Assembly: GCA_030765485.1 (NCBI GenBank)
Contig: JAVCCR010000031.1
Span: 17,359-81,358 of the forward strand
Reading direction: 5' to 3'
Source: Candidatus Gygaella obscura
GTDB lineage: Bacteria; Omnitrophota; Gorgyraeia; Gygaellales; Gygaellaceae
DNA: 64,000 nt
Positions 27,837 to 53,653 of the stretch are shown here, piece by piece. Made by a program: the position numbers and the translations under genes. Position 1 is the stretch's first letter. Each line of letters begins with the position of its first letter. Below the pieces are notes generated by a model. The model had not been told where the DNA came from, made no database searches, and saw only the letters and a program-made list of their open reading frames with translations.

Positions 27837-29669
27837 ATGAAGAAAACCTTAACCTTTCTTTTAATTGGTACGTTTTTTATTATTTTGTTGTCAGCTGGGT
27901 TTTATTTTCTGCAGCAGAAGAAAACCTCGCTTGAGTTTACGGAATTGGCTGAACTTGTTTCTCAAGATGCAATGGCCTATATTTATGCGGATAATTTAAA
28001 TGAAGTTTTTGGTGAAATTACTCAGACTGCTTTAGCAAAAAATATCATCAAGTCTAGCCCTTGGAAGAATTTTATTAATTCAGATAAAGGAAAAAATGAA
28101 TATAAAAAGGCTTTACAGATAAAGGATTTGGTTTTAAGCGTGTTAAAGAAAAGATACTCTATAGCTTTTTACTCAAGAGAAAAAGTTGAGGTTGATTTTC
28201 TGCATTTGGTAGAATTAACGCCCGATAGCAGATTTAAGGAAAAAATATTAAAAATATTTTTGGACAAGAGTGGAAAAACAGATATTAAAAGTTCAAAATA
28301 TAAAAAGTTTGTCATCAATACAGTATATTTGGATAATTTCAATCTGTATTATACCGTTGCGGGCAGTATCGCTTTAATATCCAATAACCAACAACTTGTA
28401 AAAGATGCTTTGGATTTAGGTAGTAGTAGAAAAGATAAGTCTCTTGCCGATAGTAATCGTGTAAATAATATAAGGAAGAAGTTTAATAAGACCGAGCGTT
28501 TTATGTGGGCTTGGTTTGATGCAAGAAAATGGCAGGAGGTTTCTCAACAAGCTTTATTAAAGGAAAATAAAGATAATGCATTAGATGAGCAGTTAATCAA
28601 TGAGCTTAAGAGCCCTTTTAGCGATGTATGTTTGGAGTGTGTTTTTGATAATGGGTTTGAAATAAGAATAATTTCTATGGTCGATAAGTCCTTAACAAGC
28701 GATGATGATCAAATTAAGATATATAATCTTTTTGCCGATAAGATATCCGATAAGAGGCTGCTTAATGTTTTCCCCAAACAGTCTTTGGCTTTGGCCAGTG
28801 TCCATATTGAAAGTGTTTTAGATTGGTACGAATTATTTAAGGACTATCTGGACACACCTTTATTAAAATCACCTATTATGGGCAGTCAAGATTCTTTTAA
28901 AATAAGTGATTTTAAAAATAATGTTTTAGATTACTGCGGAATTGATTTAGAAAAAGAGGTTTTATCAAATATCGGTAAGGAATTAAGTGTCGGTTTTATT
29001 GGTTTTGAAAATTTCTCCATGCCTGGTTTAAACAAGATGCCTGGTAAGGTTAATTTAAGTATTCCTTTGCCTCAGTTGTTGTTAGCTTTCGAAGTTAGGG
29101 AAGCAACAAAGGCAAAAGATACAATGAAGAAGTTATATAATAAAGTGATATCTGATCGCAATGAGCAGATGTTTTCCCATATACAGATTCCGGAAACAGA
29201 AGAAAGCGATGAATCTGCATTTAAGATTCCAGAGTTTGAAATTCAAGAACGTGATTACAAAGGAAGTACAATCTATCAGGTGGGTATAAATAGTCCAGAG
29301 CTTCAAGGCAAGGCATCCTTAGCATCTTTGATGATGTTTCCCAGTTTTACAGTAAAAAATAATGATTTTCTTATCAGTTTTCCTTCATTGTCAGTGGACA
29401 GGGCTTTGGATGATTATGATACAAAACAAAATTCAATAAAAGATAATAGAAAAATATCCGATTTGTTAGATTCGGATTATACTTTTATGTTTTTTGTTGA
29501 TGTTAATAATATTATAAGTTCATTGGAGTTTATTTTAAAGGTTTTGCCGATACATGAAAGTATTTCCGAGGTTATAGATATTATAGCTTGTATTGATTTT
29601 GTAGCCTCGAGGATGGTTAATAAAAGCGAATACGCTGAGTCAAATCTTATCATAAAGTTAAAAAAGTAA
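27837..29669 (+). CDS. Hypothetical N-terminally anchored/exported 610-aa protein of unknown function
   Basis: Signal-anchor 'MKKTLTFLLIGTFFIILLSAGFYFL'. No catalytic motifs recognised. Sits between ilvC and leuA. Confidence 0.5.
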   Translation: MKKTLTFLLIGTFFIILLSAGFYFLQQKKTSLEFTELAELVSQDAMAYIYADNLNEVFGEITQTALAKNIIKSSPWKNFINSDKGKNEYKKALQIKDLVLSVLKKRYSIAFYSREKVEVDFLHLVELTPDSRFKEKILKIFLDKSGKTDIKSSKYKKFVINTVYLDNFNLYYTVAGSIALISNNQQLVKDALDLGSSRKDKSLADSNRVNNIRKKFNKTERFMWAWFDARKWQEVSQQALLKENKDNALDEQLINELKSPFSDVCLECVFDNGFEIRIISMVDKSLTSDDDQIKIYNLFADKISDKRLLNVFPKQSLALASVHIESVLDWYELFKDYLDTPLLKSPIMGSQDSFKISDFKNNVLDYCGIDLEKEVLSNIGKELSVGFIGFENFSMPGLNKMPGKVNLSIPLPQLLLAFEVREATKAKDTMKKLYNKVISDRNEQMFSHIQIPETEESDESAFKIPEFEIQERDYKGSTIYQVGINSPELQGKASLASLMMFPSFTVKNNDFLISFPSLSVDRALDDYDTKQNSIKDNRKISDLLDSDYTFMFFVDVNNIISSLEFILKVLPIHESISEVIDIIACIDFVASRMVNKSEYAESNLIIKLKK

Positions 29670-39003: not shown

Positions 39004-40239
39004 ATGTATATATTATACGATTTGTTTTTTTTGGGAGTTTTTATCTTTGGTTTAGTCTACTACTTTTTAAAGGCTAAGTTCCATAGGGATATTTTACTGC
39101 GCATAAAACTTTTTAAGATGGAGTTTTTATCCGGATCTATCTGGATACACGCTGTAAGTGTAGGCGAAGCAAAAATTGCAAAAGTTCTATATTTTATGAT
39201 TAAAGATAAATTTCCCGAAAAGACAGTGGTGATATCAACTGTAACTCGAACAGGAAACAAAATCGTCAAGTCATTTATTTCAGGTTCGGACAAGTTGATT
39301 TATTTTCCATTGGATTTTAGTTTTATCGTGAAGAGTTTCATCAAAACAATAAATCCGAATGTTTTTATTTCAATCGAAACGGAAATCTGGCCAAACCTTT
39401 TTTATTTTTTAAATAAAAACAATACGCCTATTATCATCTTAAACGGCAGGATTTCCCCGGCATCATTTATGAGGTATAAAGTTGTAAGAGGATTATTTAA
39501 GAATGTATTAAAGAAAGTATCTTTGTTCTGTATGCAGACACAGACAGATGCGGATCGAATAGTTTCTTTAGGCGCAGACAGTGAAAAGGTAATAAAAACT
39601 GGCAGTATCAAGTTTGATATTGCAATAAAAGAAGATATTTATTTTAAAAATAGTCTTGGAATAAATGAAGATGAGCTTGTTTTTCTTGCAGGAAGTACGC
39701 ATCCTGGGGAAGAATTAATTATTTTTAACGTGTTTAAGAACATAAAAAGACAATTTCCTAATTTGAAATTAGTTTTAGCTCCTCGACATACAGAGAGGGT
39801 GGAAACAATTGAGGCTTTGCTAAGGAATATGGATTTAAGTTTTATCCGGTTTTCTGCTGTTTCAGGGAAAATGAATGAGGATATAATTATTGTAGATATT
39901 ATGGGTAAGCTAGCGCAGATTTATGCAGCAGCAGATGTGGTTTTTGTGGGAGGCAGTCTTATAAAAAAAGGAGGCCAAAATATATTAGAACCTGCTTTTT
40001 TTGCAAAACCGATAATATTTGGTCCTTTTATGTTTAATTTTAGCCAGATCAGCGAACTTTTTATTAAGGAAAACGCTGCAAAAATGGTTTTTAACCAGGA
40101 AGAGCTGTATGAGACAGTAAAGGAATTGTTAGAAGATAATAAAAAAAGATTTTCTCTTGGATTAAAGGCTAAGGAGATTCTTGATAGGAATAAGGGAGCG
40201 CTGCAGGACACCTTTAGCAAGATAGAAAAGTTTTTATAA
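39004..40239 (+). CDS. waaA: 3-deoxy-D-manno-octulosonic acid (Kdo) transferase
   Basis: 411 aa. 'IWIHAVSVGEAKIAKVL' signature. GT-B C-terminus 'VVFVGGSLIKKGGQNILEP'. Confidence 0.85.
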   Translation: MYILYDLFFLGVFIFGLVYYFLKAKFHRDILLRIKLFKMEFLSGSIWIHAVSVGEAKIAKVLYFMIKDKFPEKTVVISTVTRTGNKIVKSFISGSDKLIYFPLDFSFIVKSFIKTINPNVFISIETEIWPNLFYFLNKNNTPIIILNGRISPASFMRYKVVRGLFKNVLKKVSLFCMQTQTDADRIVSLGADSEKVIKTGSIKFDIAIKEDIYFKNSLGINEDELVFLAGSTHPGEELIIFNVFKNIKRQFPNLKLVLAPRHTERVETIEALLRNMDLSFIRFSAVSGKMNEDIIIVDIMGKLAQIYAAADVVFVGGSLIKKGGQNILEPAFFAKPIIFGPFMFNFSQISELFIKENAAKMVFNQEELYETVKELLEDNKKRFSLGLKAKEILDRNKGALQDTFSKIEKFL

Positions 40240-41303
40240 TGAAAAAATATTTTTATTTATTGGCAAACGATAAAATAAATGGTTTTATACCCGGAATTGT
40301 GAAGTTTACAATGCTTATTTTGTCTTTTGTCTATCAGGGCGCGCTTTATATTTTAAAGATTCTTTATTGTTGTAAGATTCTTAAACAGGAAAGATTAGGC
40401 GTTAAAGTTATAAGTGTCGGCAATTTAACTTTAGGCGGAACAGGCAAGACTCCCTTGGAAGAACTTATTGCTGACTATTTGTTGTTAAGGGGCAAAGATG
40501 TAGTTGTTTTAACTAGGGGTTATAAAGCCTTAGATACGGTTTCAGGCTTAAGTGGCGATGAAGCAATGATTTTAAAGAATAACCTTGGGGTTGTTGTTAT
40601 TGAAGGTAAAAACAGAGTTATCAATGCAAAAAGAGCATTAAATAAATATCATTGTGATACGATTTTACTCGATGATGCTTTTCAACACTGGAGATTATTT
40701 CGTGATTTGGATATTATTACTATTGATGCGACAAATCCTTTTGGCAATAGTTTTCTTATCCCTAGAGGCATTTTACGTGAATCAAAAAAGGCAATTAAGC
40801 GCGCAGATTTGGTAGTATTTACAAAGACCGATAGGTGCGGGAATATTGATGCTTTGGTAAAAGAGATATCAGTAATAAATAAAAAAGTTGCTTTTGTCTA
40901 TAGTAGGCATCAGGCATTAGATTTTGTCAATCTTATTAACGGCAGCAGGTTGCATTATTTAGACTTTTCTAAGGTCGAAGACATTTGTTTTGTTTGCGGT
41001 ATTGCAGATCCGAGTTACTTTAAGCATACACTTACAGATATTGGTTTGAATGTAGGTTTAAGTTTTGTTTTTCCCGATCATTATCGCTATACAAAGGATG
41101 AATTTGTCAAAATAGTTAATGAATGTAAACGTAAGGGGATAAAGAATATTATTCTTACTCAGAAGGATGCAGTAAAACTGGGATTTCTTAAGGATTTAAA
41201 AGAAAGCATTGGTTTGGATTTCTGGTTTTTACGGATTAAGATGAAGTTAACAAAAAACGAAGATGAACTTTTTAATAAACTGGATAACTTATATATCGGC
41301 TAG
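40239..41303 (+). CDS. lpxK: Tetraacyldisaccharide 4'-kinase
   Basis: 354 aa. P-loop 'ISVGNLTLGGTGKTP'. Shared stop/start with waaA. Confidence 0.85.
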   Translation: MKKYFYLLANDKINGFIPGIVKFTMLILSFVYQGALYILKILYCCKILKQERLGVKVISVGNLTLGGTGKTPLEELIADYLLLRGKDVVVLTRGYKALDTVSGLSGDEAMILKNNLGVVVIEGKNRVINAKRALNKYHCDTILLDDAFQHWRLFRDLDIITIDATNPFGNSFLIPRGILRESKKAIKRADLVVFTKTDRCGNIDALVKEISVINKKVAFVYSRHQALDFVNLINGSRLHYLDFSKVEDICFVCGIADPSYFKHTLTDIGLNVGLSFVFPDHYRYTKDEFVKIVNECKRKGIKNIILTQKDAVKLGFLKDLKESIGLDFWFLRIKMKLTKNEDELFNKLDNLYIG

Positions 41304-43197
41304 AATTCTTGTAGGGGTATTTTCTATTTTAAAGCCAGAATCAGCGCTTTTAATTGCAAGAATAATTGCCAGATTAATCTATATGTTTAGTTTTAAGTAT
41401 AAAAGAATTGCCTATGTCAACTTGAGGCGTGTATTTGCTGAAAAAAAGTCACGAAAAGATCTTGAATCAATATTAAAGAAGTCTTTTATAAACCTAATTC
41501 AGGATATTGTAGAGACCTTCAGGCTTTCTAAGATTGATTCTGATTATATTAATAAGTACATCAAATTAGAGGGAGTTGAATATATCGATCAGGTCTTAAA
41601 AGCACAAAAAGGGGTAATTTTGGTAGGAAGTCATTTCGGCAGTTGGGAAATGGCCAATGTTATTTTTTCATTATTGGGTTATGACTATAATGTTTTTGCA
41701 AAGGAGCAGGCAAGATATAACAAGACGTTTCTCTATCTTAATAAGTTAAGAAAGGATAAAGGTATTAAGGTTTACATGGAAGGAAATGCCCTTTTAAAGA
41801 TTGCCCATGCCCTCAAACAGAATAAGGTTGTAGTTATGGTTGCTGACCATGGAGGTAAAAACGGAGTGGTTGTACCGTTTTTTGATATTCCTGTACCTAC
41901 TCCTTCGGGCGCAGTGAGGCTTGCCTTGAGGTTTGATACTTCTATTATGCTATGTAGTATCAGACGGATAAAAGGGCCTTACCATATTTTAAGGATAAAC
42001 CCTTTAAGTTTAACAAAAGCCACTTCTTTAGAAGATAGCTTAAAGATAAATTTAAATAAAATAAACGCAGAAATTGAAGATTTGATAAATAGATATCCTG
42101 AGCAAAACCTATGGCGCTACAGAAGGTGGAAATATTCTGCCCTTAAGAGGGTGTTGGTGTTAAGTGATGATAAAGCAGGTCATATGAATCAGTCTAGGGC
42201 TATAGTGGATTTGTTAGGGAAAGGGAATAATATTATTGAGCAAAAAGTTATTAGAGTAAAGTTTAAACATAGATTTTATAAGGTTATTTTGAGATTTTTT
42301 TCTTTGTTTATATCAATGCGCATGGTTGGTTCTTTAAGGTATTTGAAGTTTGCCCTTGAAAAGGATTCATTCGAGCGTCTTATCAGAACACATGCAGATA
42401 TAATTATTTCTGCTGGTTCTAGTTTAGCAGCAGTTAATCTTTATTTAAAACGGGAAAACCAAGCCAGGTCTATCTGTATTATGAATCCGGGTTTCTTAAG
42501 AAAGTCTTTATTTGATTTAATAATAGCGCCAAGGCATGATCCCTTATCTTTAAAAGAAAATATTGTTTTTACTGATGCAGCTGTTAATCGTATTGATGAA
42601 GACTTTCTTCAGAAGGGACGTATTGAATTGGAAGGTTTCTTAAAAAAGAGAGACATTGCATTAAAGCCAGATGTTTTAGGTGTGTTTTTTGGAGGAGACA
42701 CCAAGGCCTTTAAGTATAAACAGCAAAGCTTAATTGCTTTAATTGAGAAAATAAAAAGTTTTATTAAAGGTAATGAATTTGATTTGTTTTTTACTACTTC
42801 TAGAAGAACATCTGTTATTCAAGAGAGGCTTTTTGAAGGGCAACTTAAAACAAGTGCAAAGTTTCTTGTTGTCGCCAATAAAAACAATCCTGAATATGCT
42901 TTTGCAGGTATTCTAGCTATAAGCACTATCATTTTAGTAAGCGCAGAAAGTATTTCCATGGTCTCAGAAGCTGTAGCAGGTTCGAAGAAAGTAGTGGTTT
43001 TTCTTCCCAGTGTTTTGTCTTTAAGGCGACGGCATAAGATTTTCCTTGATAATCTGAAAGAAAAAGGTTTGATAGCTATAGCTGATGAAAATAATCTTTA
43101 TGAGGTTTTAGTTGTTGTTTCAGCAGGTAAAATTTCATCTACAGGTTTTAGTGATCGGGATAATATAATAAATGCATTAAGGGAAAAGATTTTATGA
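41263..43197 (+). CDS. Fusion protein: LpxL/HtrB-family lipid A late acyltransferase (N-terminal) + ELM1/DUF1022-like domain (C-terminal)
   Basis: 644 aa. N-terminal ~290 aa with H(X)4E acyltransferase motif 'GSHFGSWE' and HtrB-like layout. C-terminal ~350 aa begins 'RVLVLSDDKAGHMNQSRAIVDLLG', matching my recollection of the bacterial ELM1/DUF1022 N-terminal signature. Confidence 0.65.
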   Translation: MNFLINWITYISARILVGVFSILKPESALLIARIIARLIYMFSFKYKRIAYVNLRRVFAEKKSRKDLESILKKSFINLIQDIVETFRLSKIDSDYINKYIKLEGVEYIDQVLKAQKGVILVGSHFGSWEMANVIFSLLGYDYNVFAKEQARYNKTFLYLNKLRKDKGIKVYMEGNALLKIAHALKQNKVVVMVADHGGKNGVVVPFFDIPVPTPSGAVRLALRFDTSIMLCSIRRIKGPYHILRINPLSLTKATSLEDSLKINLNKINAEIEDLINRYPEQNLWRYRRWKYSALKRVLVLSDDKAGHMNQSRAIVDLLGKGNNIIEQKVIRVKFKHRFYKVILRFFSLFISMRMVGSLRYLKFALEKDSFERLIRTHADIIISAGSSLAAVNLYLKRENQARSICIMNPGFLRKSLFDLIIAPRHDPLSLKENIVFTDAAVNRIDEDFLQKGRIELEGFLKKRDIALKPDVLGVFFGGDTKAFKYKQQSLIALIEKIKSFIKGNEFDLFFTTSRRTSVIQERLFEGQLKTSAKFLVVANKNNPEYAFAGILAISTIILVSAESISMVSEAVAGSKKVVVFLPSVLSLRRRHKIFLDNLKEKGLIAIADENNLYEVLVVVSAGKISSTGFSDRDNIINALREKIL

Positions 43198-45284
43198 ATA
43201 TATTACAGATCTTACCACAACTTAATGTCGGAGGGGTAGAGACAGGAGTTGTTGATTTGTCCCGCCGTTTGGTCGAGGATGGACATAAGGTTGTTGTTGT
43301 TTCTTCTGGCGGAATGTTGGTTTCCGATCTTGAAAAGAGCGGCGTTAAGCATTATACATTGGCGGTTCACAGGAAGAACCCTTTTGTTTTGATAAAGACT
43401 ATCCCGCAATTGGCTAAGATTATTAAAGATGAGCATATTGAAGTTATCCACGGTCGTTCGCGCGTTCCGGCATGGGTAGGTTTTATTGTCTCTTTTAAAA
43501 CAGGGGTTAATTTTGTTACTACTTGTCATGGTTATTATTCCAGGCATTTCTTTAGTAGGGTTATGGCATTAGGCAAATATGTAATTTGTCCCAGCAATAT
43601 CATAGCGCGTCATATGGTTGATGATTTTTCTGTCAAGAGGGACAATATAGTTATAATTCCAAGAGGCGTTGACATATCAAAATATAGCTTTATCAGGCCG
43701 GATGAAAGAAATAAGCAGGATTTTACTATAGGGATTATTGGAAGACTCACTCCATTAAAGGGGCATGTCCATTTTTTGAATGCTGCAGCAAAGCTGCATA
43801 GAATTATTCCTAATCTGCGTATCTGGATAGTGGGAGATGCTGCTAAGAATAAACAGGATTACAAAGAGGAGTTAAAGACACTTTGCAGGAAGTTAGGCAT
43901 AGCCGAGCGCGTAGATTTTTTAGGCTATCAGAAAGATATTGCTTCTATACTTTCAAAGATGAACATTTTAGTGCTTTCAACTGTAACCGAAGAGGCTTTT
44001 GGCAGGGTGATAATTGAATCACAGGCAGCGGGCGTTCCGGTTGTAGCGACAAGAGTGGGCGGAGTTATTGATATTATAAAAGATAACGAAACAGGCATTT
44101 TGGTTAATCCTGCGGATTCAGAGGCAATTAAAAATGCGGTAATAAGGTTTTATAATGATGATAGCTTCACTAATAGTTTGGCGTTGAAGGCTAGGGCTTA
44201 TGTTGAGGAGAGGTTTACTCTAGAGAACATGTATCAGAAAACACTTTCTGTTTACAAAAAGACGATAGTCAAGAAAAGGATTATTGTTATTAAATTAACT
44301 GCTTTAGGCGATGTTATCTTGGCTGTACCCAGCCTTCGGGCGATAAAGAAAAAATTCAAAAATCATACTATTACTTGTTTGGTAAACAAGAATTTTAGTT
44401 CTCTTTTATGGGATTGTCCTTATGTGGATGATTTGATAGTCGATGATAAGGATATTCAACATAAAGGATTCTTTGGTTTATTGCGATTGGCCAAAAAGAT
44501 TATTTATTATAGATTTGATATTTCGATTGATCTGCAGAATAATAAACGCAGCCACTTATTGTCTTTTTTGGGAATAATTGCTGAAAGGTATGGTTTTTTT
44601 ATTAAAAGAAAGCTGAGTTTTCTTATTAACCGTACAGTATCTCTGCCGCAACAGGTTGAACATCCTGTAAGACATCAATTAAATGTATTACGGTTGTTGG
44701 ATATAAAGGATATGGATGATTCTTTGGAATTGTGGGTTAATAAGGACGCAAAGAAGTTAATGAACAGTTTTCTGGAAAAGCATTGGTTAACTGAAGACCA
44801 AAAACTGATAGGGATAAATATTGGAGCAAGCAGTCGTTGGAAGTCTAAATGCTGGCCGAGCGCTAATATTGTGAAGCTTTGTGATATGCTTAAAACTAAG
44901 AATATGCGTGTTGTTTTTACAGGCACAAAAGCTGATCTTGCAATTGCCCAGGAAGTGACTGCTAGATTAAAGGATTTTAAACCGATAATCGCCTGCGGTC
45001 AAACTAATCTTGCGCAGCTTATCGCTTTGGTTGATAGATGCAGTGTTCTTATCAGCGGAGATTCAGCTCCGATTCATATTGCTTCTAGCCTTAATGTTCC
45101 TTTTGTTGCTCTTTTTGGACCGACCGATCCTTCAAAACATCTTCATCCTAAAGGAAAATACAGGCTGTTAAGAAAGGAAGTGCCTTGTTCTCCTTGCTAC
45201 AGATCAAAATGTAAAAAGAATATATGCATGAAGCTTATTACATCAAAAGAGGTTTTTGAAAAAGTAGAGGAGCTGTTGGTTTAA
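43194..45284 (+). CDS. Bifunctional glycosyltransferase: GT4 (group 1) N-terminal domain + GT9 heptosyltransferase-like C-terminal domain
   Basis: 696 aa. N-terminus 'ILQILPQLNVGGVETGVVDL', E-X7-E 'EAFGRVIIESQAAGVPVVATRVGG' (GT4). C-terminal half begins 'IIVIKLTALGDVILAVPSLRAIKKKF' (GT9 LPS heptosyltransferase signature). Confidence 0.7.
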   Translation: MNILQILPQLNVGGVETGVVDLSRRLVEDGHKVVVVSSGGMLVSDLEKSGVKHYTLAVHRKNPFVLIKTIPQLAKIIKDEHIEVIHGRSRVPAWVGFIVSFKTGVNFVTTCHGYYSRHFFSRVMALGKYVICPSNIIARHMVDDFSVKRDNIVIIPRGVDISKYSFIRPDERNKQDFTIGIIGRLTPLKGHVHFLNAAAKLHRIIPNLRIWIVGDAAKNKQDYKEELKTLCRKLGIAERVDFLGYQKDIASILSKMNILVLSTVTEEAFGRVIIESQAAGVPVVATRVGGVIDIIKDNETGILVNPADSEAIKNAVIRFYNDDSFTNSLALKARAYVEERFTLENMYQKTLSVYKKTIVKKRIIVIKLTALGDVILAVPSLRAIKKKFKNHTITCLVNKNFSSLLWDCPYVDDLIVDDKDIQHKGFFGLLRLAKKIIYYRFDISIDLQNNKRSHLLSFLGIIAERYGFFIKRKLSFLINRTVSLPQQVEHPVRHQLNVLRLLDIKDMDDSLELWVNKDAKKLMNSFLEKHWLTEDQKLIGINIGASSRWKSKCWPSANIVKLCDMLKTKNMRVVFTGTKADLAIAQEVTARLKDFKPIIACGQTNLAQLIALVDRCSVLISGDSAPIHIASSLNVPFVALFGPTDPSKHLHPKGKYRLLRKEVPCSPCYRSKCKKNICMKLITSKEVFEKVEELLV

Positions 45285-46381
45285 TGAATGTACTGTTAGT
45301 GACTAAACATTTAAATATTGGGGGGATTTCACGCTATGTAGTTAATTTAGCCAAAGGATTAAAACAGAATAATATAAATGTTTTTGTCGCTTCAGGAACA
45401 GGTGTTTTAAAGAGTGAATTGGATAAGCATAAAATCAACCATTATAAGATCGATTTTAATACTAAAAATGAATTTAATCCGTTTCTTTTTAGGCAGTATT
45501 TACAGCTTAGAAAGATAGTTAAAGATAATGATATTGATATAGTCCATGCACAGGAAAGAGTGACTCAGGTTTTATGTGGACTTATTGCTAAATATAATGA
45601 TATAAAGGTTATTTCTACATGTCATGGGATATATCGGGTAAGGTTTTTGCGTAAAATCTTTCCTTTTTTTGGAGATAGGGTAATAGCGGTCAGCGATTAT
45701 TGCCGCAGGCTTATTCTGGATAATTTCAAAATAAAAGAAAAAAAAGTAAAGCTTATCAATAATGGTATAGATTTATCTAGGTTTAATCAGTTGGATTCTC
45801 TTGAAAAAGAGGCATTGAGAAATAAATATGGTTTAGAAAAGACTGATCTTGTAATCGGTAATATAGCGCGTTTTTCTCCTGATAAGGGTCTTGATTTATT
45901 ATTGGAAGTTTTTAAACGAGTACATGATTTTTTACCGCAGGCTAAATTAGTTATTGTTGGAGGAGGGCCGCAGGAAGAGTCTCTGCGTTTTAAGGCAAAG
46001 GCTTTAGGTATAACTAATGATGTTAGGTTTTTAGGGTTTGTGAATGAAACAAAAGAACCACTTTCCGTGATGGATGTTTTTTGTACTACGACCAAATACG
46101 AATCGTTTGGATTGTCGGTTTTAGAGGCTATGGCTGTAGGGGTTACGGTTGTTGTTTCTTGTGTGGGAGGGTTAAAAGAATTGGTTCAAGATTCAGTTAA
46201 TGGTTATTGTGTAGAATATGATAAATTGGATTGTTTTACTGATAGATTAATAGAGCTTTTAAGCAATAATTCTTTGCGGTTAGGGATGGCTGCGCAAGCA
46301 CAAAAGTTTTGTTTTGAGAATTTTAATATAGATAATTGTGTAAAAAAGACAATAGAGGTTTATAAGCAGGTTTTAATATAA
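45284..46381 (+). CDS. Group 1 (GT4) glycosyltransferase
   Basis: 365 aa. 'VLLVTKHLNIGGISRYVVNLAKGL', E-X7-E 'ESFGLSVLEAMAVGVTVVVSCVGG'. Confidence 0.8.
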   Translation: MNVLLVTKHLNIGGISRYVVNLAKGLKQNNINVFVASGTGVLKSELDKHKINHYKIDFNTKNEFNPFLFRQYLQLRKIVKDNDIDIVHAQERVTQVLCGLIAKYNDIKVISTCHGIYRVRFLRKIFPFFGDRVIAVSDYCRRLILDNFKIKEKKVKLINNGIDLSRFNQLDSLEKEALRNKYGLEKTDLVIGNIARFSPDKGLDLLLEVFKRVHDFLPQAKLVIVGGGPQEESLRFKAKALGITNDVRFLGFVNETKEPLSVMDVFCTTTKYESFGLSVLEAMAVGVTVVVSCVGGLKELVQDSVNGYCVEYDKLDCFTDRLIELLSNNSLRLGMAAQAQKFCFENFNIDNCVKKTIEVYKQVLI

Positions 46382-46395
46382 TTAATGAGAAAGAG

Positions 46396-47214
46396 ATGAA
46401 GATAAAGAAAATAAAGATACTTCTGGTTATTTTAGCTGTTTCTATTTTTGTATCGGTATTTTTTATTTTAAGGCGCGAATATGTTGTACCTATATTTATG
46501 TATCATTCTGTGAGAAAGGATAATCCGTCAAGCACTAAGTTGATTGTAAGCCCTAAGGCATTTGAGGAGCAAATGAGGTTTCTTGCTAAAAATTCTTATA
46601 ATGTAATAAGTCTTTCATGCCTTGCGCGCATCATACAGGAGAATAAAAAAATCCCTCCTAAGACCGTAGTTGTTACTTTTGATGACGGCTACAGGGATAA
46701 TTTTTTAAATGCTAAGCCGATTTTAGAAAAGTATCTTATTCCGGCAACCATATTTATTGCTGTAGATTTTATTGGGCAGCAAATTAAGCAAAGTAGTTAT
46801 TTTGTAGATAGTTCTGAATTTATGTCAATAGAGGAACTTAAAAGTTTAGTTGATTCTGAGTTTATCGATCTAGGCATTCATACGTTTAGCCATGTAGATC
46901 TGGTAAAGCTTGATGAACAAAACGATTTAATCCATGAGATAAAAGAGCCTAAGGAATTTCTTGAAGAACAGCTTGACTGTGAAATGGATTTATTCAGTTA
47001 TCCTTTCGGCTCCTTTGATAAAAGAAGCCGTAGTATTGTTTTGCAATCCGGTTATGTGGCAGCTGTGGCAACAAACCCCGGAAGAGATTACCCAAAAAAT
47101 GACGTATTTGTATTAAAAAGAATCCGCATCAGCGAAAAAGACAGTAATCCTTTTATCCTCTGGGTAAAGGCAAGCGGTTTTTACACATTATTAAAAGAAT
47201 TAAGAGATGACTAA
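46396..47214 (+). CDS. Polysaccharide deacetylase (NodB-homology, CE4) with N-terminal membrane anchor
   Basis: 272 aa. TM 'ILLVILAVSIFVSVFFIL'. 'VVVTFDDGYRDNF' Asp-Asp metal motif. 'HTFSHVDL' His motif. Confidence 0.8.
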   Translation: MKIKKIKILLVILAVSIFVSVFFILRREYVVPIFMYHSVRKDNPSSTKLIVSPKAFEEQMRFLAKNSYNVISLSCLARIIQENKKIPPKTVVVTFDDGYRDNFLNAKPILEKYLIPATIFIAVDFIGQQIKQSSYFVDSSEFMSIEELKSLVDSEFIDLGIHTFSHVDLVKLDEQNDLIHEIKEPKEFLEEQLDCEMDLFSYPFGSFDKRSRSIVLQSGYVAAVATNPGRDYPKNDVFVLKRIRISEKDSNPFILWVKASGFYTLLKELRDD

Positions 47215-48241
47215 AGTTTATAAAAGAATTCTGGTTTTTAACGTCAATTGGCTTGGGGATGTGCTTTTTACCACTCCGGCAATACGTGTTTTAAGAAAAA
47301 GTTTTCCTGATAGTTATATTGCCTGTGCTGCGCCTGCCAGGTGCGCGCAGCTTTTAAAGAATAACCCTAGTATAAATGAGTTTATTTCTTTTGATGAAAG
47401 AGGCAGTTTCAAGAGTGTGTTTTCAAAGATAGCGTTTATTTTTTCTTTGAGAAAGAAAAAATTTGATGCGGTATTTTTATTTCACCGTTCCTTTACAAGA
47501 CTTATGATTTGTTTTTTTGCTGGGATAAAAAATAGAATTGGATATAGCCGCAGGAAGAATAATCTGCTGTTGACCGGTAAGATCGATCCTATTGAGCGTG
47601 ATTCTGTTCATCGTATTGATTACTTTTTGAATATCGTCAGGCCTTATGTTGGTAAGATTGATGATAAATCTTATGAACTTAAGGTAAACAAAAGAGACAT
47701 CTTAGATGTAAGGAATATATTGGAAGAAAAAGGAGTGAAAAGTTCTGATCAATTGGTTGTGCTTAATCCTGGTGCAAATTGGCCTCTTAAGCGTTGGCCG
47801 GTTGATAATTTTGCAAAGCTTATTAATCTTTTGTCAAAAGAACCTGGTTTAAAAGTTATTGTTGTTGGGGCAAAAGAAGATCAAGGTTTGGTGGAGAAGA
47901 TCTTAAGTCTATCTAAATCTGAAGCGGTTGTATTAACAGGGCAGCTTAATCTTATTCAGCTTGCTGCATTGTTTAGTTTAAGCAGTATTGTCATAAGCGC
48001 TGATTCAGGGCCGATGCATATTGCCATTGCAGTTGAGGTCAGTGTTATTGCATTGTTTGGGCCCACTGATTATAGGATTACAGGACCTGTTGATGTTGAT
48101 AAAAACACTGTTTTGAAAAAAGATATAGATTGTGATATCCCGTGTTTTAAACTTGATTGCGCGGATAATATCTGTATGAGTCAGATAACTGCGGAAGAAG
48201 TACTTGAAGTCATAAAAACAAAACTATTAATGCGCCCATAG
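47207..48241 (+). CDS. ADP-heptose:LPS heptosyltransferase (GT9, WaaC/WaaF-like)
   Basis: 344 aa. 'ILVFNVNWLGDVLFTTPAIRVLRKSFPD', 'VLNPGANWPLKRWP', 'SADSGPMHIAIAV'. Confidence 0.8.
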   Translation: MTKVYKRILVFNVNWLGDVLFTTPAIRVLRKSFPDSYIACAAPARCAQLLKNNPSINEFISFDERGSFKSVFSKIAFIFSLRKKKFDAVFLFHRSFTRLMICFFAGIKNRIGYSRRKNNLLLTGKIDPIERDSVHRIDYFLNIVRPYVGKIDDKSYELKVNKRDILDVRNILEEKGVKSSDQLVVLNPGANWPLKRWPVDNFAKLINLLSKEPGLKVIVVGAKEDQGLVEKILSLSKSEAVVLTGQLNLIQLAALFSLSSIVISADSGPMHIAIAVEVSVIALFGPTDYRITGPVDVDKNTVLKKDIDCDIPCFKLDCADNICMSQITAEEVLEVIKTKLLMRP

Positions 48242-48305
48242 CTCAATTGGATAGAGCGCCAGTCTTCGGAACTGGATGTTGCAGGTTCGATTCCTGCTGG
48301 GCGCG
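48232..48305 (+). tRNA. tRNA-Arg (anticodon TCG)
   Basis: gcgccca acceptor, D-arm gctcaattggatagagc, anticodon stem ccagt/actgg with loop cTTCGga, T-arm gcaggttcgattcctgc. Overlaps the heptosyltransferase stop by ~10 nt. Confidence 0.85.
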
Positions 48306-48312
48306 AAAAAAA

Positions 48313-48909
48313 ATGAAAACATGCCCGTTTTGTACAAAAGAAATCGCTGAAGGGGATACAACCTGTAAGCACTGCAATAGGTCTCTAACTCAAGAGTTGG
48401 GGGAAAGGTTTTCTTATCAAAAAGAAGAGGTCTTTTCTAATATAGTACCGATTAAGAAATTTATTTTCTTAAGCGTAATCAGTTTAGGGTTGTATGAGAT
48501 TTACTGGATGTATAAGAATTGGCAGTTTATTAAAGAAAAAAGAAAACTAAAAATAATTCCTATGGCTAGAGCAATATTTTCTTTATTTTTTATATACAGT
48601 TTTTTTAAGAATATATTCCTTATTACAGCTGAAAAAGGTTATGAGGAAAAGTATTCCCCTATTTTACTAAGCGCTTGTTTTATAATGCTTAATCTTCTGG
48701 CCAATAAGGATAACCTTATGTGGTTTATGGCTATATTCTCGTTTGTTCCGCTTGTTGTTGCTTTAAATGCAGTTAATTTCTATTGGCAAAAAACCCAACC
48801 TAAAAAAAGGATAAGGACTAATTTTAGCAAGGAAGAGTTATTGATGTTATATTTTGGTTTATTATTAATACTTATGAGTGTTATTTCTATGTTTACTGTG
48901 GTTAAATAG
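48313..48909 (+). CDS. Zinc-ribbon-containing membrane protein (hypothetical)
   Basis: Re-called start at ATG 48313, because the track ORF start 48247 lies inside the tRNA. 198 aa. N-terminal CPFC...CKHC zinc ribbon followed by 4-5 TM helices. Confidence 0.5.
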   Translation: MKTCPFCTKEIAEGDTTCKHCNRSLTQELGERFSYQKEEVFSNIVPIKKFIFLSVISLGLYEIYWMYKNWQFIKEKRKLKIIPMARAIFSLFFIYSFFKNIFLITAEKGYEEKYSPILLSACFIMLNLLANKDNLMWFMAIFSFVPLVVALNAVNFYWQKTQPKKRIRTNFSKEELLMLYFGLLLILMSVISMFTVVK

Positions 48910-52405: not shown

Positions 52406-53653
52406 GTGATGAAAAAAATTATTTTATTTATATTTTTTCATTTTTTATATTCTTTTTCTTTTGCCCAAGAGGTTGAGGAAATCCGCATTGTTACTTATTA
52501 TCCAGCCCCTTACGGAAGTTATACTGAGTTGACTACTGAGCGAATGAAGATCGGTCCGACTTTTTCTCAGAGTGGTACAACTGTTGGTGACGGTAATTTA
52601 ATTGTAGAAAATAATGTTGCAATAGGCACGGATACGCCAATTAGTGGAGTACCAGGATCAGATAAGATTTTGACGATTGGTGGCACAAACCCGACACTAA
52701 GGTTTGATGATTTAGATGTAGGTGATAATGATATGGAAATACACGTACAAAACGGAGAGATGGGTTTTTATGAGCTAAGTACTTTAAGAATGATGTTAAA
52801 AGGGGGCTATTTGGGAATTGGTACGGATTCTCCTTCTGACAAATTGACTGTAGAAGAAGGAGTTATTAATATAAGGTCAGCAGGTGGTGCTTTGAAATTT
52901 ACAGATACCAATGAAAATGATGCAGGGCAAATTAGGTTAGCTACGCTATCGGTAAAAGGGCTAGAATTTTTGGTTGATTCAAATGGTGATAAGATAGCAG
53001 AACTTATTGCGATGAATATAGATCCTGACGGTAATGTGGGTATTGGTACAACTAACCCGGAAGCAAAGTTACATATTTTAGACACTAGCGATGGTTCTTC
53101 CGGAGGTTCGGCGCCAGCTGGTTCGGATAGATTGGTTATAGAAGGAGGGTTTAACGCCTATATCAATGAGATTTCCCATCCCAATGCATGGGGAGGAATT
53201 CTCTTTTCCGATGATGTTAGGGGAAGAGGATCAATTAAATATGGACACTTTAACGATGTGCTTGAGATTAACGTTGCCGGTTCATCGGCGATGTCCATTG
53301 ATAAAAGCGGTAATATCACGGGAACTTATGGAAGTTATCATGTCGCTTCGGATGAGCGGTTAAAGAAAGATATTACTACGATTCAGGATGCATTGGATAA
53401 AGTTTTAAGTTTGAGGGGTGTGAATTTTCACTGGAAAGATTCTAATTTAAATCAAGGTAAATTGCGTATGGGGTTAGTTGCACAAGAGGTTGAAAAAGTT
53501 GTTCCCGAGGTTGTTCATACTGTAGATGATGAAATGCAGACAAAGGCAGTTGAATATCAATATTTGGTTGGTTTATTGATAGAAGCAATTAAAGATCAGC
53601 AGAAGCAGATAAATAATTTAAAAACAGAAGTTGAAATACTTAAGAATAATTAA
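52406..53653 (+). CDS. Secreted fibre-like protein with C-terminal peptidase S74 (intramolecular-chaperone, self-cleaving) domain
   Basis: 415 aa. Signal peptide 'MMKKIILFIFFHFLYSFSFAQE'. Repeated 'N-V-(A/G)-IGT-(D/T)-x-P' motifs at three positions, resembling tail-fibre/beta-helix repeats. C-terminus 'ASDERLKKDITTIQDALDKVLSLRGVNFHWKD...GLVAQEVEKVVPEVV' matches the endosialidase-type chaperone domain that autocleaves at Ser. Confidence 0.75.
   Translation: MMKKIILFIFFHFLYSFSFAQEVEEIRIVTYYPAPYGSYTELTTERMKIGPTFSQSGTTVGDGNLIVENNVAIGTDTPISGVPGSDKILTIGGTNPTLRFDDLDVGDNDMEIHVQNGEMGFYELSTLRMMLKGGYLGIGTDSPSDKLTVEEGVINIRSAGGALKFTDTNENDAGQIRLATLSVKGLEFLVDSNGDKIAELIAMNIDPDGNVGIGTTNPEAKLHILDTSDGSSGGSAPAGSDRLVIEGGFNAYINEISHPNAWGGILFSDDVRGRGSIKYGHFNDVLEINVAGSSAMSIDKSGNITGTYGSYHVASDERLKKDITTIQDALDKVLSLRGVNFHWKDSNLNQGKLRMGLVAQEVEKVVPEVVHTVDDEMQTKAVEYQYLVGLLIEAIKDQQKQINNLKTEVEILKNN

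What the first reader, a model, noticed from the sequence alone, without database searches (positions are those of the whole stretch)
41263..43197. Lipid A late acyltransferase fused to an ELM1/DUF1022-like domain
The N-terminal half has the H(X)4E motif ('GSHFGSWE') and the layout of LpxL/LpxM/HtrB. The C-terminal ~350 aa start with 'RVLVLSDDKAGHMNQSRAIVDLLG'. That matches my memory of the N-terminal signature of bacterial ELM1 (mitochondrial-fission ELM1, formerly DUF1022) proteins, a GT-B-like family of unknown function often misannotated as sugar epimerases. A covalent fusion within a waaA-lpxK-lpxL operon would be the first direct functional clue tying DUF1022 to lipid A/Kdo-lipid A late steps.
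Basis: partly seen in the sequence, partly recalled or inferred. Interest (0 to 1): 0.55.

Follow-up and report, generated by a model that had tools for sequence, protein, structure and literature searches.

The report
LpxL acyltransferase fused to KdoT-type glycosyltransferase
This gene from an Omnitrophota bacterium really does join a lipid A late acyltransferase to an "ELM1" domain, but that domain's family was shown in 2024-2025 to be a Kdo sugar transferase (KdoT) of the outer-membrane lipid core, so this is a new fused variant of known enzymes, not a first clue to an unknown family.

Summary
ORF 41263-43197 (+) encodes 644 aa with Lip_A_acyltrans (aa 4-290) and Mito_fiss_Elm1 (aa 305-609), both far above the Pfam cut-offs. 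It sits in the cluster waaA, lpxK, fusion, GT4::GT9, GT4, deacetylase, GT9.

The fusion is not an artefact. The best 80 of 538 species-genome matches are all full-length fusions. In 79 of those 80 (nearly all Omnitrophota) it is one intact ORF with a rigid linker of about 4 residues.

The ELM1 family was predicted to be an LOS glycosyltransferase in 2014 (GtrOC1). The A. baumannii member was shown to be KdoT, a CMP-Kdo:Kdo2-lipid IVA transferase, in 2024-2025.

I retrieved authentic KdoT. All eight published residues (D8, H13, H109, D110, S178-R-R-T181) align with invariant residues here (D302, H307, H425, D426, S513-T516).

The downstream GT4 domain is the counterpart of GnaT, KdoT's partner enzyme. 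Close stand-alone relatives sit in kdsA-kdsD-kdsB-ELM1 operons or waaA-lpxK-ELM1-GT4 clusters. A Methylophaga-like contig has lpxL, kdoT and gnaT as separate adjacent genes.

Best reading: a bifunctional enzyme that adds both a secondary acyl chain and an extra Kdo to Kdo2-lipid IVA. The donor sugar is inferred, not shown. Verdict: a new variant of a known kind, of moderate interest.

The parts
39004..40239 (+). waaA (Kdo transferase, GT30). It makes the Kdo-lipid IVA acceptor.
   Evidence: Pfam Glycos_transf_N E 1e-53. NCBIfam NF004388 scores 358 bits, below its equivalog cut-off of 438. It lies upstream of lpxK in most of the 80 Omnitrophota loci, sometimes separated by a 1-3 kb insert.
40239..41303 (+). 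lpxK (tetraacyldisaccharide 4'-kinase). It makes lipid IVA.
   Evidence: Pfam LpxK E 3.6e-72. TIGR00682 scores 167.5 bits against a cut-off of 92. It is directly upstream of the fusion in 70 of 71 loci.
41263..43197 (+). The fusion ORF, 644 aa: an LpxL/LpxM-type acyltransferase joined to a KdoT-family (ELM1/GtrOC1) GT-B glycosyltransferase.
   Evidence: AlphaFold2 model: mean pLDDT 90.1, pTM 0.87.
41263..42138 (+). N-terminal lipid A secondary acyltransferase domain (aa 1-292), with two N-terminal amphipathic or hydrophobic helices (aa 2-42).
   Evidence: PF03279 at aa 4-290. Foldseek: LpxM 5KN7 at E 8e-15 and TM 0.70, then PatA. 24% identity and E 4e-13 to A. baumannii LpxL. All NCBIfam LpxL/LpxM equivalog models score below their cut-offs.
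41632..41649 (+). Catalytic H124-x4-E129 dyad of the acyltransferase.
   Evidence: Located. H124 and E129 are invariant in 26 fusion homologues.
42112..42147 (+). Domain junction (aa 284-295): W-x-Y-[KR]-x-W-K-Y-S, then about 4 residues, then the first beta-strand of the GT-B domain.
   Evidence: No indels across 26 homologues at 30-61% identity. W284 and K290 are invariant. pLDDT is 87-94 across the junction.
42139..43194 (+). C-terminal KdoT-family GT-B glycosyltransferase domain (aa 293-644).
   Evidence: PF06258 at 152 bits. BLASTP to authentic A. baumannii KdoT: 24% identity over 319 aa, E 1e-11. To the KdoT-like P0235: 27% over 287 aa, E 5e-22. Foldseek hits are GT-B enzymes.
42166..42183 (+). 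D302-x4-H307, equivalent to KdoT D8 and H13.
   Evidence: MAFFT alignment with authentic KdoT; the columns are invariant in 15 sequences. D-x4-H is present in 103 of the 104 fusions that carry an exact SRRT.
42535..42540 (+). H425-D426, equivalent to KdoT H109 and D110.
   Evidence: Invariant in the fusion family.
42799..42810 (+). S513-R514-R515-T516, equivalent to the KdoT SRRT motif. R180, which aligns with R515, is the functionally important residue.
   Evidence: Mutagenesis of R179 and R180 is in PMC12856342. [ST]RR[ST] occurs in 257 of 264 family members.
43194..44267 (+). GnaT/LpsB-like GT4 domain, the N-terminal half of a GT4::GT9 fusion.
   Evidence: A. baumannii GnaT matches this domain at 31% identity and 185 bits, against 94 bits for the second GT4. 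GT4 genes next to stand-alone ELM1 genes in 5 contexts are all of this type. It is directly downstream of the fusion in 69 of 70 loci.
44268..45284 (+). GT9 (heptosyltransferase-family) domain fused to the GT4.
   Evidence: Pfam Glyco_transf_9 E 4.5e-35. TIGR02195 scores 128.6 bits, just below its cut-off of 134.6. Fused in 68 of 69 loci.
45284..48241 (+). Rest of the core-oligosaccharide cluster: GT4 (45284-46381), polysaccharide deacetylase (46396-47214) and GT9 (47207-48241).
   Evidence: Pfam. Conserved order in Omnitrophota.

Best explanation
The ORF encodes a genuine bifunctional enzyme of Kdo-lipid A maturation. It works at the cytoplasmic face of the inner membrane, on the product of the two genes upstream. 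LpxK makes lipid IVA and WaaA adds Kdo. The N-terminal domain is an LpxL/LpxM-type secondary acyltransferase that uses the H124/E129 dyad to add an acyl chain to the lipid A moiety. The C-terminal domain is a member of the KdoT (ELM1/GtrOC1, PF06258) family of inverting GT-B glycosyltransferases. It most likely transfers one further Kdo from CMP-Kdo onto the inner-core Kdo of the same Kdo(2)-lipid IVA/lipid A molecule, with the SRRT arginines (R514/R515) positioning the donor. The GnaT-like GT4 domain encoded immediately downstream then glycosylates that new Kdo, and the GT9 and GT4 enzymes extend the core. Fusing the two domains through a rigid linker of about 4 residues tethers the soluble-type KdoT domain to the membrane-associated acyltransferase, and places two enzymes that share one lipid acceptor side by side. 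Shown here: the domain identities, the conservation of catalytic and motif residues, the fold, the phylum-wide conservation of the fusion, and the gene neighbourhoods. Inferred: the donor sugar (Kdo), the acceptor position, the order of the two reactions, and any channelling. Sub-probabilities: about 0.9 that it is a real two-domain LPS enzyme made of an acyltransferase and an inner-core glycosyltransferase, and about 0.6 that the donor is specifically CMP-Kdo.
For: (1) Both domains score far above the Pfam cut-offs. HX4E is invariant. The N-terminal domain superposes on LpxM 5KN7. (2) The experimentally characterised family member is KdoT, which transfers Kdo from CMP-Kdo to Kdo2-lipid IVA in vitro (PMC12856342). 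I retrieved the authentic A. baumannii gene from its published position, ilvE followed by gtrOC1, and its residue numbering matches the paper exactly. All 8 published residues align with invariant residues of the window protein. (3) Close stand-alone relatives of the domain sit at the end of CMP-Kdo synthesis operons. In L088 and L089 the order is kdsA-kdsD-kdsB-ELM1 with overlapping genes, and KdsA, KdsD and KdsB all exceed curated NCBIfam cut-offs. L092 has kdsD-kdsB-ELM1. (4) Another relative lies in msbA-DUF374-waaA-lpxK-x-ELM1-GT4. (5) The ELM1-plus-GnaT-like-GT4 module recurs in 6 or more contexts, and the window's adjacent GT4 domain is the GnaT counterpart. (6) The genes are linked in several combinations. 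lpxL, kdoT and gnaT are separate adjacent genes in a Methylophaga-like Tara scaffold. lpxL and kdoT form one 674-aa CDS in M. pinxianii. lpxL lies next to gnaT in A. baumannii. (7) The fusion is a single intact ORF in 79 of 80 species genomes with an invariant-length junction. The AF2 pTM of 0.87 indicates a defined inter-domain arrangement.
Against: There is no biochemical or structural LPS data for any Omnitrophota. Identity to authentic KdoT is only 24%. The SRRT motif is family-wide (257 of 264), so it does not discriminate a Kdo-specific subgroup. A. baumannii OC loci carry further PF06258 paralogues (GtrOC14, GtrOC19 and GtrOC22) in the variable outer-core region that probably use other donors, and I could not obtain them for comparison. 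The cluster also holds GT9 heptosyltransferase-like enzymes, which in E. coli-type cores use the KdoI O5 position that KdoIII occupies in Acinetobacter. The N-terminal domain scores below every NCBIfam LpxL/LpxM equivalog cut-off, so its acyl chain and position specificity are unknown. The N-terminal helix is only moderately hydrophobic.
Confidence: 0.62

Rival explanations
1. The architecture is as described, but the ELM1 domain transfers a sugar other than Kdo (for example a hexose, a hexuronic acid or another ulosonic acid) to the inner core.
For: PF06258 has several paralogues in the variable Acinetobacter outer-core loci (GtrOC14, GtrOC19 and GtrOC22), so the family is probably not mono-specific. 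SRRT is family-wide. Identity to KdoT is only 24%. In a rough NJ tree the Omnitrophota domains form their own clade.
Against: The nearest stand-alone groups are linked to kdsA, kdsD and kdsB, to waaA-lpxK, or are positional KdoT orthologues. The partner GT4 is GnaT-like, and GnaT's acceptor is KdoIII. D8, H13, H109 and D110 equivalents are all retained, although H13 is reported not to be conserved outside Acinetobacter.
Confidence: 0.22
2. The ELM1 domain is catalytically inactive and serves as a scaffold, regulator or substrate-binding module for the acyltransferase or for the downstream glycosyltransferases.
For: The mBio 2024 paper raised an 'assistive' role for A1S_2903 before the biochemistry was done. 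No catalytic base was identified in KdoT.
Against: KdoT alone is catalytically sufficient in vitro. All 19 columns that are invariant between KdoT and its relatives, including SRRT, GG and S-x-S-M-x-x-E, are kept across Omnitrophota proteins at 30-61% identity. This is the pattern expected of an active enzyme.
Confidence: 0.05
3. The N-terminal domain is not a lipid A acyltransferase. It acylates another glycolipid, in the manner of PatA or a lysophospholipid acyltransferase.
For: PF03279 also covers PatA. Foldseek ranks PatA close behind LpxM. All NCBIfam LpxL/LpxM equivalogs score below their cut-offs, and 'lysophospholipid acyltransferase' models also hit.
Against: The gene overlaps lpxK and follows waaA in 70 of 71 loci. 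The best structural match is LpxM. The fused partner acts on Kdo2-lipid IVA. No other PF03279 gene lies in this cluster.
Confidence: 0.06
4. The fusion is an assembly, frameshift or gene-calling artefact.
For: One related locus (L087) shows the gene split, and one (L059) has an internal stop.
Against: L087 has many other fragmented genes (topA, waaA), so it looks like a low-quality assembly. L059's stop is inside the ELM1 domain, not at the junction. 79 of 80 independent species genomes have one intact ORF with an invariant-length junction.
Confidence: 0.01

Closest known systems
KdoT (A1S_2903, GtrOC1) of Acinetobacter baumannii: CMP-Kdo:Kdo2-lipid IVA Kdo transferase, ELM1/GtrOC1 family, PF06258 (PMC12856342, PMC10936431, PMC4172580)
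   Same: Same Pfam family (152 bits here, 203.5 bits for KdoT). GT-B fold. All published residues are conserved in register: D8, H13, H109, D110 and SRRT. It is followed functionally, and here also physically, by a GnaT-like GT4. It sits in an LPS core cluster that includes a polysaccharide deacetylase.
   Different: Only 24% identity. It is covalently fused to an LpxL-type acyltransferase. It has two insertions relative to KdoT, of roughly 25 and 15 residues. It lies next to waaA-lpxK, not at an ilvE-flanked OC locus. It comes from Omnitrophota, not Proteobacteria. Activity is untested.
LpxL/LpxM (HtrB/MsbB) lipid A secondary acyltransferases, PF03279; solved structure: A. baumannii LpxM 5KN7
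   Same: Pfam hit across the whole domain. Invariant HX4E dyad. Best structural match. N-terminal helical anchor region. Encoded with lpxK and waaA.
   Different: Scores below all NCBIfam equivalog cut-offs. 24% identity to A. baumannii LpxL. Carries a C-terminal glycosyltransferase domain. Acyl chain, position and Kdo dependence are unknown.
GnaT (LpsB) of A. baumannii: the UDP-GlcNAcA transferase that acts on KdoIII (GT4)
   Same: The window's GT4 domain at 43194-44267 is its best match in the cluster (31% identity, 185 bits against 94 bits). It has an EX7E motif. It directly follows the KdoT-type domain.
   Different: It is fused to a GT9 domain. No gna (UDP-GlcNAc dehydrogenase) gene was found among the ORFs of the window that were scanned, so the donor may differ.
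Separate-gene version: lpxL-kdoT-gnaT in a Methylophaga-like Tara Oceans scaffold (L096) and the 674-aa LpxL-KdoT CDS of Methylophaga pinxianii TMB1265 (WP_226069883.1)
   Same: Same three activities in the same order. In M. pinxianii they are even one CDS with PF03279 plus PF06258.
   Different: The gammaproteobacterial domains are much closer to A. baumannii LpxL and KdoT than to the Omnitrophota domains. The M. pinxianii linker is about 70 residues and corresponds to the spacer between separate genes in L096, so that fusion is recent and lineage-specific. The Omnitrophota fusion is ancient and phylum-wide.
WaaA (KdtA, GT30): the canonical mono- to tetra-functional Kdo transferase
   Same: Inverting GT-B enzyme that uses CMP-Kdo on lipid IVA-derived acceptors. 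It is encoded two genes upstream.
   Different: A different family: Glycos_transf_N/GT30 as against PF06258. The ELM1 domain gives no sequence hit to any PDB entry, WaaA included. KdoT cannot act on lipid IVA lacking Kdo (supplement of PMC12856342).

Membership tests
KdoT / ELM1-GtrOC1 family (PF06258) | Significant match to the family profile over the whole domain | tested here: met
   PF06258 at 151.6 bits (cut-off 27), profile positions 1-280 of 304. Authentic KdoT scores 203.5 bits on the same model.
KdoT / ELM1-GtrOC1 family (PF06258) | Invariant SRRT motif, with R180 functionally important | tested here: met
   S513-R514-R515-T516 aligns with KdoT S178-T181. S, R and R are invariant and T is at least 90% conserved in 26 fusions. 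Caveat: the motif is family-wide (257 of 264).
KdoT / ELM1-GtrOC1 family (PF06258) | Active-site cluster D8, H13, H109 and D110 (conserved, although individually non-essential in KdoT) | tested here: met
   D302, H307, H425 and D426 align exactly and are invariant.
KdoT / ELM1-GtrOC1 family (PF06258) | GT-B fold of two Rossmann-like domains | tested here: met
KdoT / ELM1-GtrOC1 family (PF06258) | Direct homology to the experimentally validated enzyme | tested here: met
   BLASTP against A. baumannii KdoT (L093:5989-6876): 24% identity over 319 aa, E 1e-11. This shows homology. It does not prove orthology.
KdoT / ELM1-GtrOC1 family (PF06258) | Genomic association with Kdo / Kdo2-lipid IVA synthesis and with a GnaT-type GT4 | tested here: met
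   waaA-lpxK lie upstream and a GnaT-like GT4 downstream. Relatives sit in kdsA-kdsD-kdsB-ELM1 operons.
KdoT / ELM1-GtrOC1 family (PF06258) | Uses CMP-Kdo as donor and Kdo2-lipid IVA as acceptor (the activity that defines KdoT as opposed to other GtrOC paralogues) | not testable with these tools
   This needs an enzyme assay or complementation of ΔkdoT. The GtrOC14, GtrOC19 and GtrOC22 paralogues could not be retrieved for a specificity comparison.
LpxL/LpxM lipid A secondary acyltransferases (PF03279) | Match to the family profile over the whole domain | tested here: met
   PF03279 at 139 bits (cut-off 22.3), profile positions 11-294 of 295.
LpxL/LpxM lipid A secondary acyltransferases (PF03279) | Catalytic HX4D/E dyad | tested here: met
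   H124 and E129 are invariant in 26 homologues. The 5KNK entry is the E127A catalytic mutant of LpxM.
LpxL/LpxM lipid A secondary acyltransferases (PF03279) | Structural similarity to a solved member | tested here: met
   Foldseek against 5KN7 (LpxM): E 8e-15, TM 0.70 normalised to the target, 279 aligned columns.
LpxL/LpxM lipid A secondary acyltransferases (PF03279) | Equivalog-level assignment to LpxL, LpxM or LpxP | tested here: not met
   The best NCBIfam model scores 98.6 bits against a cut-off of 248, and all 17 models score below their cut-offs. It is therefore filed as LpxL/LpxM-type and not as a specific orthologue.
LpxL/LpxM lipid A secondary acyltransferases (PF03279) | N-terminal membrane anchor | tested here: inconclusive
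   The model has helices at aa 2-22 and 25-42. The maximum Kyte-Doolittle 19-residue mean is 1.59 here and 0.7-2.4 in homologues.
LpxL/LpxM lipid A secondary acyltransferases (PF03279) | Acyl-ACP-dependent acylation of (Kdo2-)lipid IVA | not testable with these tools
   This needs an enzyme assay or lipid A mass spectrometry.

The most novel reading that the evidence does not exclude
The fusion could be more than a tether. On this reading LpxL, KdoT and GnaT form an obligatorily coupled assembly line on one Kdo2-lipid IVA molecule. In Omnitrophota it is hard-wired as two polypeptides that carry four catalytic domains (LpxL::KdoT and GnaT-like::GT9). Secondary acylation and the extra Kdo addition would then be mutually dependent or channelled. 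This would be the physical explanation for the unexplained in-vivo co-dependence of KdoT and GnaT reported in A. baumannii. It would also explain the recurring linkage of lpxL with kdoT and gnaT: adjacency in Methylophaga-like genomes, lpxL-gnaT adjacency in A. baumannii, and fusion in Omnitrophota. A variant of this reading is that Omnitrophota WaaA is monofunctional and the ELM1 domain supplies KdoII.
Probability: 0.2. Interest if true: 0.6.

Novelty: new variant of a known kind. Interest (0 to 1): 0.45.

Why it matters
KdoT was characterised only in December 2025, and its authors reported homologues only in Acinetobacter and Rickettsia.

This locus and its relatives show that the KdoT/GnaT two-step inner-core pathway reaches well beyond Proteobacteria. 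In Omnitrophota it appears as the standard, phylum-wide arrangement.

The kdsA-kdsD-kdsB-ELM1 operons give independent comparative-genomic support for CMP-Kdo as the family's donor.

lpxL is repeatedly linked to kdoT and gnaT, by fusion or by adjacency. This points to a functional coupling between late acylation and inner-core extension that the published work has not addressed. It offers a testable lead on why KdoT needs GnaT in vivo.

Practically, the two annotations seen for this protein family, 'ELM1/GtrOC1 family putative glycosyltransferase' and 'KDO2-lipid IV(A) lauroyltransferase', each name only one of the two domains. A cultured organism, Methylophaga pinxianii, offers a tractable system with both the fused and the nearly fused state.

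Tried and rejected
- **Frameshift or assembly artefact:** rejected.
- **Literature on 'DUF1022':** no hits. 'Omnitrophota' plus 'lipid A' returned nothing relevant. Searches on Mito_fiss_Elm1/PF06258 and KdoT/ELM1 found no description of this fusion.
- **Supplement of PMC12856342:** its KdoT alignment is held only as an image, so it gave no sequences.
- **Word-indexed protein searches:** they did not reach any named Acinetobacter or Rickettsia protein. Authentic KdoT and GnaT came instead from A. baumannii chromosomes filed in the plasmid collection.
- **Profile search of the ELM1 domain against PDB sequences:** zero hits.
- **SRRT as a Kdo-specific marker:** rejected, because the motif is family-wide.
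- **Methylophaga pinxianii CDS as a robust independent fusion:** I first read it that way. I downgraded it after a relative at about 75% identity showed separate adjacent genes, with the 'linker' corresponding to the spacer.
- **L087 'split' fusion:** rejected as a true split, because many other genes in that contig are also fragmented.
- **Other lpxL loci:** 78 further metagenomic lpxL loci related to the Methylophaga gene had no ELM1 gene nearby. The lpxL-kdoT linkage is therefore lineage-specific, not universal.
- **Stand-alone ELM1 loci without LPS context:** L001 shows none. L084 has only a distant GT4 on the opposite strand.

Full report
**1. The observation**

One search lists a single ORF at exactly 41263..43197 on the + strand. 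It encodes 644 aa and overlaps the 3' end of the upstream gene by 41 nt.

Pfam finds two domains:
- Lip_A_acyltrans (PF03279) at aa 4-290: E 2e-40, 139 bits, cut-off 22.
- Mito_fiss_Elm1 (PF06258, formerly DUF1022) at aa 305-609: E 3e-44, 152 bits, cut-off 27.

GSHFGSWE lies at aa 122-129, giving H124-x4-E129, and RVLVLSDDKAGH lies at aa 296-307.

| Coordinates | Gene or domain |
|---|---|
| 39004-40239 | waaA |
| 40239-41303 | lpxK |
| 41263-43197 | the fusion |
| 43194-45284 | GT4::GT9 fusion |
| 45284-46381 | GT4 |
| 46396-47214 | polysaccharide deacetylase |
| 47207-48241 | GT9 |

All lie on one strand and abut or overlap. The cluster is flanked by unrelated housekeeping genes. No paralogue of either domain occurs elsewhere in the window.

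**2. The fusion is real and ancient**

The identical protein is on record from the MAG 'Candidatus Gygaella obscura', which belongs to the phylum Omnitrophota in the PVC group.

The same two-domain architecture occurs in about 50 protein clusters at 30-61% identity, and in about 70 more found with a profile of the C-terminal domain.

A scan of one genome per species found 538 relatives. The best 80 are all full-length fusions in Omnitrophota MAGs, a few of them labelled 'uncultured Planctomycetales'.

Using the window's proteins as tblastn probes:
- The two domains form one intact ORF in 79 of 80 loci. The exception, L059, has a single stop inside the ELM1 domain and not at the junction.
- lpxK is directly upstream in 70 of 71 loci.
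- A GT4 is directly downstream in 69 of 70 loci.
- The order topA, xerC, waaA, lpxK, LpxL::ELM1, GT4::GT9, GT4, PDA, GT9(x1-3) is conserved across the phylum.

The junction (W-x-Y-K-x-W-K-Y-S, about 4 residues, then the first beta-strand) has no indel in 26 homologues, and W284 and K290 are invariant.

An AlphaFold2 model built on those homologues is confident, with mean pLDDT 90.1 and pTM 0.87. The pTM implies a defined inter-domain arrangement.

**3. The N-terminal half**

Foldseek against the PDB puts A. baumannii LpxM first (5KN7, E 8e-15, TM 0.70 relative to the target). The mycobacterial acyltransferase PatA follows.

H124 and E129 are invariant.

Every NCBIfam LpxL/LpxM/LpxP equivalog model hits but scores below its curated cut-off; the best is 98.6 bits against 248. 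I therefore call it an LpxL/LpxM-type secondary acyltransferase and do not assign chain or position specificity.

**4. The C-terminal half, and the literature**

NCBI names this protein 'ELM1/GtrOC1 family putative glycosyltransferase'. Three papers bear on the family:
- **Kenyon et al. 2014 (PMC4172580):** placed GtrOC1, the first gene of the A. baumannii outer-core locus next to ilvE, in Pfam Mito_fiss_Elm1 (GT-B clan CL0113). They predicted it to be a glycosyltransferase and noted that homologues are misannotated as sugar epimerases.
- **VanOtterloo et al. 2024 (PMC10936431):** showed that deleting the ELM1-like gene A1S_2903 leaves a Kdo2 core.
- **VanOtterloo, Voss and Trent 2025 (PMC12856342):** purified the protein and named it KdoT. 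It transfers a third Kdo from CMP-Kdo to Kdo2-lipid IVA, and the GT4 enzyme GnaT (LpsB) then adds GlcNAcA. They described an invariant SRRT motif in which R180 is important. They also described the conserved but individually dispensable residues D8, H13, H109 and D110.

The family's link to Kdo-lipid A is therefore established.

**5. Direct comparison with authentic KdoT**

Word-indexed searches did not reach Acinetobacter.

A KdoT-like stand-alone protein, P0235, sits in glnE-ilvE-x-ELM1-...-GT4-GT9-GT9. Used as a tblastn query against the plasmid collection, it hit A. baumannii chromosome-sized records.

The region has the published layout: glnE, ilvE, a 296-aa 'nucleoside-diphosphate sugar epimerase', a GT, pda and a GT2. 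Its translation has D8, H13, H109, D110 and S178-R179-R180-T181 exactly as numbered in the paper.

BLASTP of the window's domain against it gives 24% identity over 319 aa, E 1e-11. Against P0235 it gives 27% over 287 aa, E 5e-22.

A 15-sequence MAFFT alignment maps the published residues as follows:

| KdoT | Window protein |
|---|---|
| D8 | D302 |
| H13 | H307 |
| H109 | H425 |
| D110 | D426 |
| S178-T181 | S513-T516 |

Nineteen columns are invariant across all 15 sequences. The fusion domains carry two insertions relative to KdoT.

One caveat applies. [ST]RR[ST] is present in 257 of 264 family members. It defines the family, not Kdo specificity. Acinetobacter also has further PF06258 paralogues in the variable outer-core region.

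No solved structure exists for the family by sequence search. Foldseek gives generic GT-B hits.

**6. Independent context evidence for the donor and the pathway**

| Locus | Gene order |
|---|---|
| L088, L089 (P0129) | fbaA-kdsA-kdsD-x-kdsB-ELM1; ELM1 overlaps kdsB |
| L092 (P0126, 62% identical to P0129) | kdsD-kdsB-ELM1 |
| L002 (P0127) | msbA-DUF374-waaA-lpxK-x-ELM1-GT4 |
| L003, L090 | ELM1 followed by an overlapping GT4 |
| L085, L086 | ELM1 with GT4 and GT9 genes |

In L088, KdsA, KdsD and KdsB all exceed curated NCBIfam cut-offs.

The GT4 genes next to ELM1 in five of these contexts are all much closer to the window's adjacent GT4 domain (127-245 bits) than to its second GT4 (70-117 bits).

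Authentic A. baumannii GnaT has its EX7E motif at E283, as published. It matches those ELM1-adjacent GT4s at 31-47% identity. It matches the window's GT4a domain at 31% and 185 bits, against 94 bits for GT4b.

The cluster therefore encodes the KdoT-then-GnaT two-step module. A rough NJ tree puts the fusion clade beside the D-x4-H stand-alone groups (kdsB-linked, KdoT-like and waaA-lpxK-linked). The alphaproteobacterial clades lie further away.

**7. Are the halves separate adjacent genes elsewhere?**

Yes.
- A Tara Oceans scaffold (L096) has lpxL (307 aa), kdoT-like (331 aa) and gnaT-like (373 aa) as consecutive separate genes.
- Its relative at about 75% identity, the cultured Methylophaga pinxianii TMB1265, has lpxL and kdoT as one 674-aa CDS (PF03279 at 261 bits plus PF06258 at 207 bits), followed by gnaT-like.
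- Both Methylophaga domains are far closer to A. baumannii LpxL and KdoT than to the Omnitrophota domains. The linker of about 70 residues corresponds to the spacer in L096. This is therefore a recent, separate joining event, or a read-through, and not shared ancestry with the Omnitrophota fusion.
- In A. baumannii itself, lpxL lies directly upstream of lpsB/gnaT.
- 78 other lpxL loci from metagenomes showed no ELM1 nearby, so the linkage is recurrent but not universal.

**8. Mechanism**

Established pathway knowledge (E. coli Raetz pathway): LpxK produces lipid IVA, WaaA adds Kdo, and LpxL-type enzymes add secondary acyl chains. In E. coli this happens only after Kdo addition.

KdoT acts on Kdo2-lipid IVA and not on lipid IVA (PMC12856342 and its supplement).

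Both domains of the fusion are thus expected to use the same lipid acceptor at the same membrane face. The fusion tethers the otherwise soluble-type GT-B domain to the membrane-associated acyltransferase. The next enzyme, GnaT-like and fused to a GT9, is encoded immediately downstream.

What remains inferred: the donor sugar, the linkage, the reaction order and any channelling.

**9. Verdict**

The object is a new, phylum-wide fused variant of two known enzyme kinds (LpxL-type plus KdoT-type). It is not described in the searchable literature.

Interest is moderate. It extends a just-described pathway to a distant phylum. It adds comparative support for the Kdo donor. It also suggests coupling among LpxL, KdoT and GnaT that could be tested directly.

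Noticed in passing
window 43194-45284: The next gene is itself a fusion of a GT4 and a GT9 (696 aa), fused in 68 of 69 Omnitrophota loci. Its GT4 half is the counterpart of A. baumannii GnaT/LpsB (31% identity, 185 bits). Two consecutive polypeptides therefore carry four catalytic domains of inner-core assembly.
   Followed up: partly
L088:2000-5787, L089, L092:1039-3816: Stand-alone ELM1 genes lie at the end of CMP-Kdo biosynthesis operons (kdsA-kdsD-kdsB-ELM1, with ELM1 overlapping kdsB). This is independent genomic evidence that this branch of PF06258 uses CMP-Kdo. I did not find it mentioned in the papers I read.
   Followed up: yes
L095:4958-6982 (Methylophaga pinxianii pWTT2411) and L096:3989-7139 (Tara scaffold): A cultured gammaproteobacterium has a 674-aa LpxL-KdoT CDS with a linker of about 70 residues. 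A relative at about 75% identity has lpxL, kdoT and gnaT as separate adjacent genes. This looks like a recent fusion or stop-codon loss, separate from the Omnitrophota fusion.
   Followed up: partly
L094:309-2610 (A. baumannii CP035931.1): In A. baumannii the lpxL-type 'lauroyl acyltransferase' gene lies directly upstream of lpsB/gnaT on the same strand. This is another linkage between late acylation and the KdoT/GnaT step.
   Followed up: no
L016, L030, L037 and others, between waaA and lpxK: Many Omnitrophota loci carry a variable insert of 1-3 kb between waaA and lpxK that is absent from the window. Its content was not examined.
   Followed up: no
window 48247-48909: A 220-aa ORF with a TTG start and no Pfam hit sits at the end of the LPS cluster, where most related Omnitrophota loci have two further GT9 genes.
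   Followed up: no
window 27837-29669: A 610-aa ORF between ilvC and leuA-like genes has no Pfam match at E <= 1e-4.
   Followed up: no
window 52406-53653: A 415-aa protein carries a C-terminal Peptidase_S74 domain (the intramolecular chaperone of endosialidase and tail fibres; E 8e-18). This domain is typical of phage tail fibres. It was not investigated further.
   Followed up: no
L002:1711-2379: The stand-alone ELM1 locus L002 has a DUF374 gene between msbA and waaA. From memory, DUF374 is the LpxJ family of late lipid A acyltransferases. If so, a different acyltransferase family may occupy the equivalent operon slot there.
   Followed up: no
L087 (ENA contig_25074) and L059: L087 shows the fusion, topA and waaA all fragmented into pieces, which points to an error-rich assembly. 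L059 has one in-frame TAG inside the ELM1 domain. Neither is a true domain split.
   Followed up: yes
PLSDB records NZ_CP077849.1, NZ_CP064203.1, NZ_CP104448.1, CP040041.1, CP035931.1: Records of 0.56-4.1 Mb labelled as A. baumannii 'plasmids' are chromosomal sequence. This is useful for retrieving chromosomal genes, but it is a data-quality issue. Several MAGs labelled 'uncultured Planctomycetales' likewise carry the Omnitrophota-type locus.
   Followed up: no
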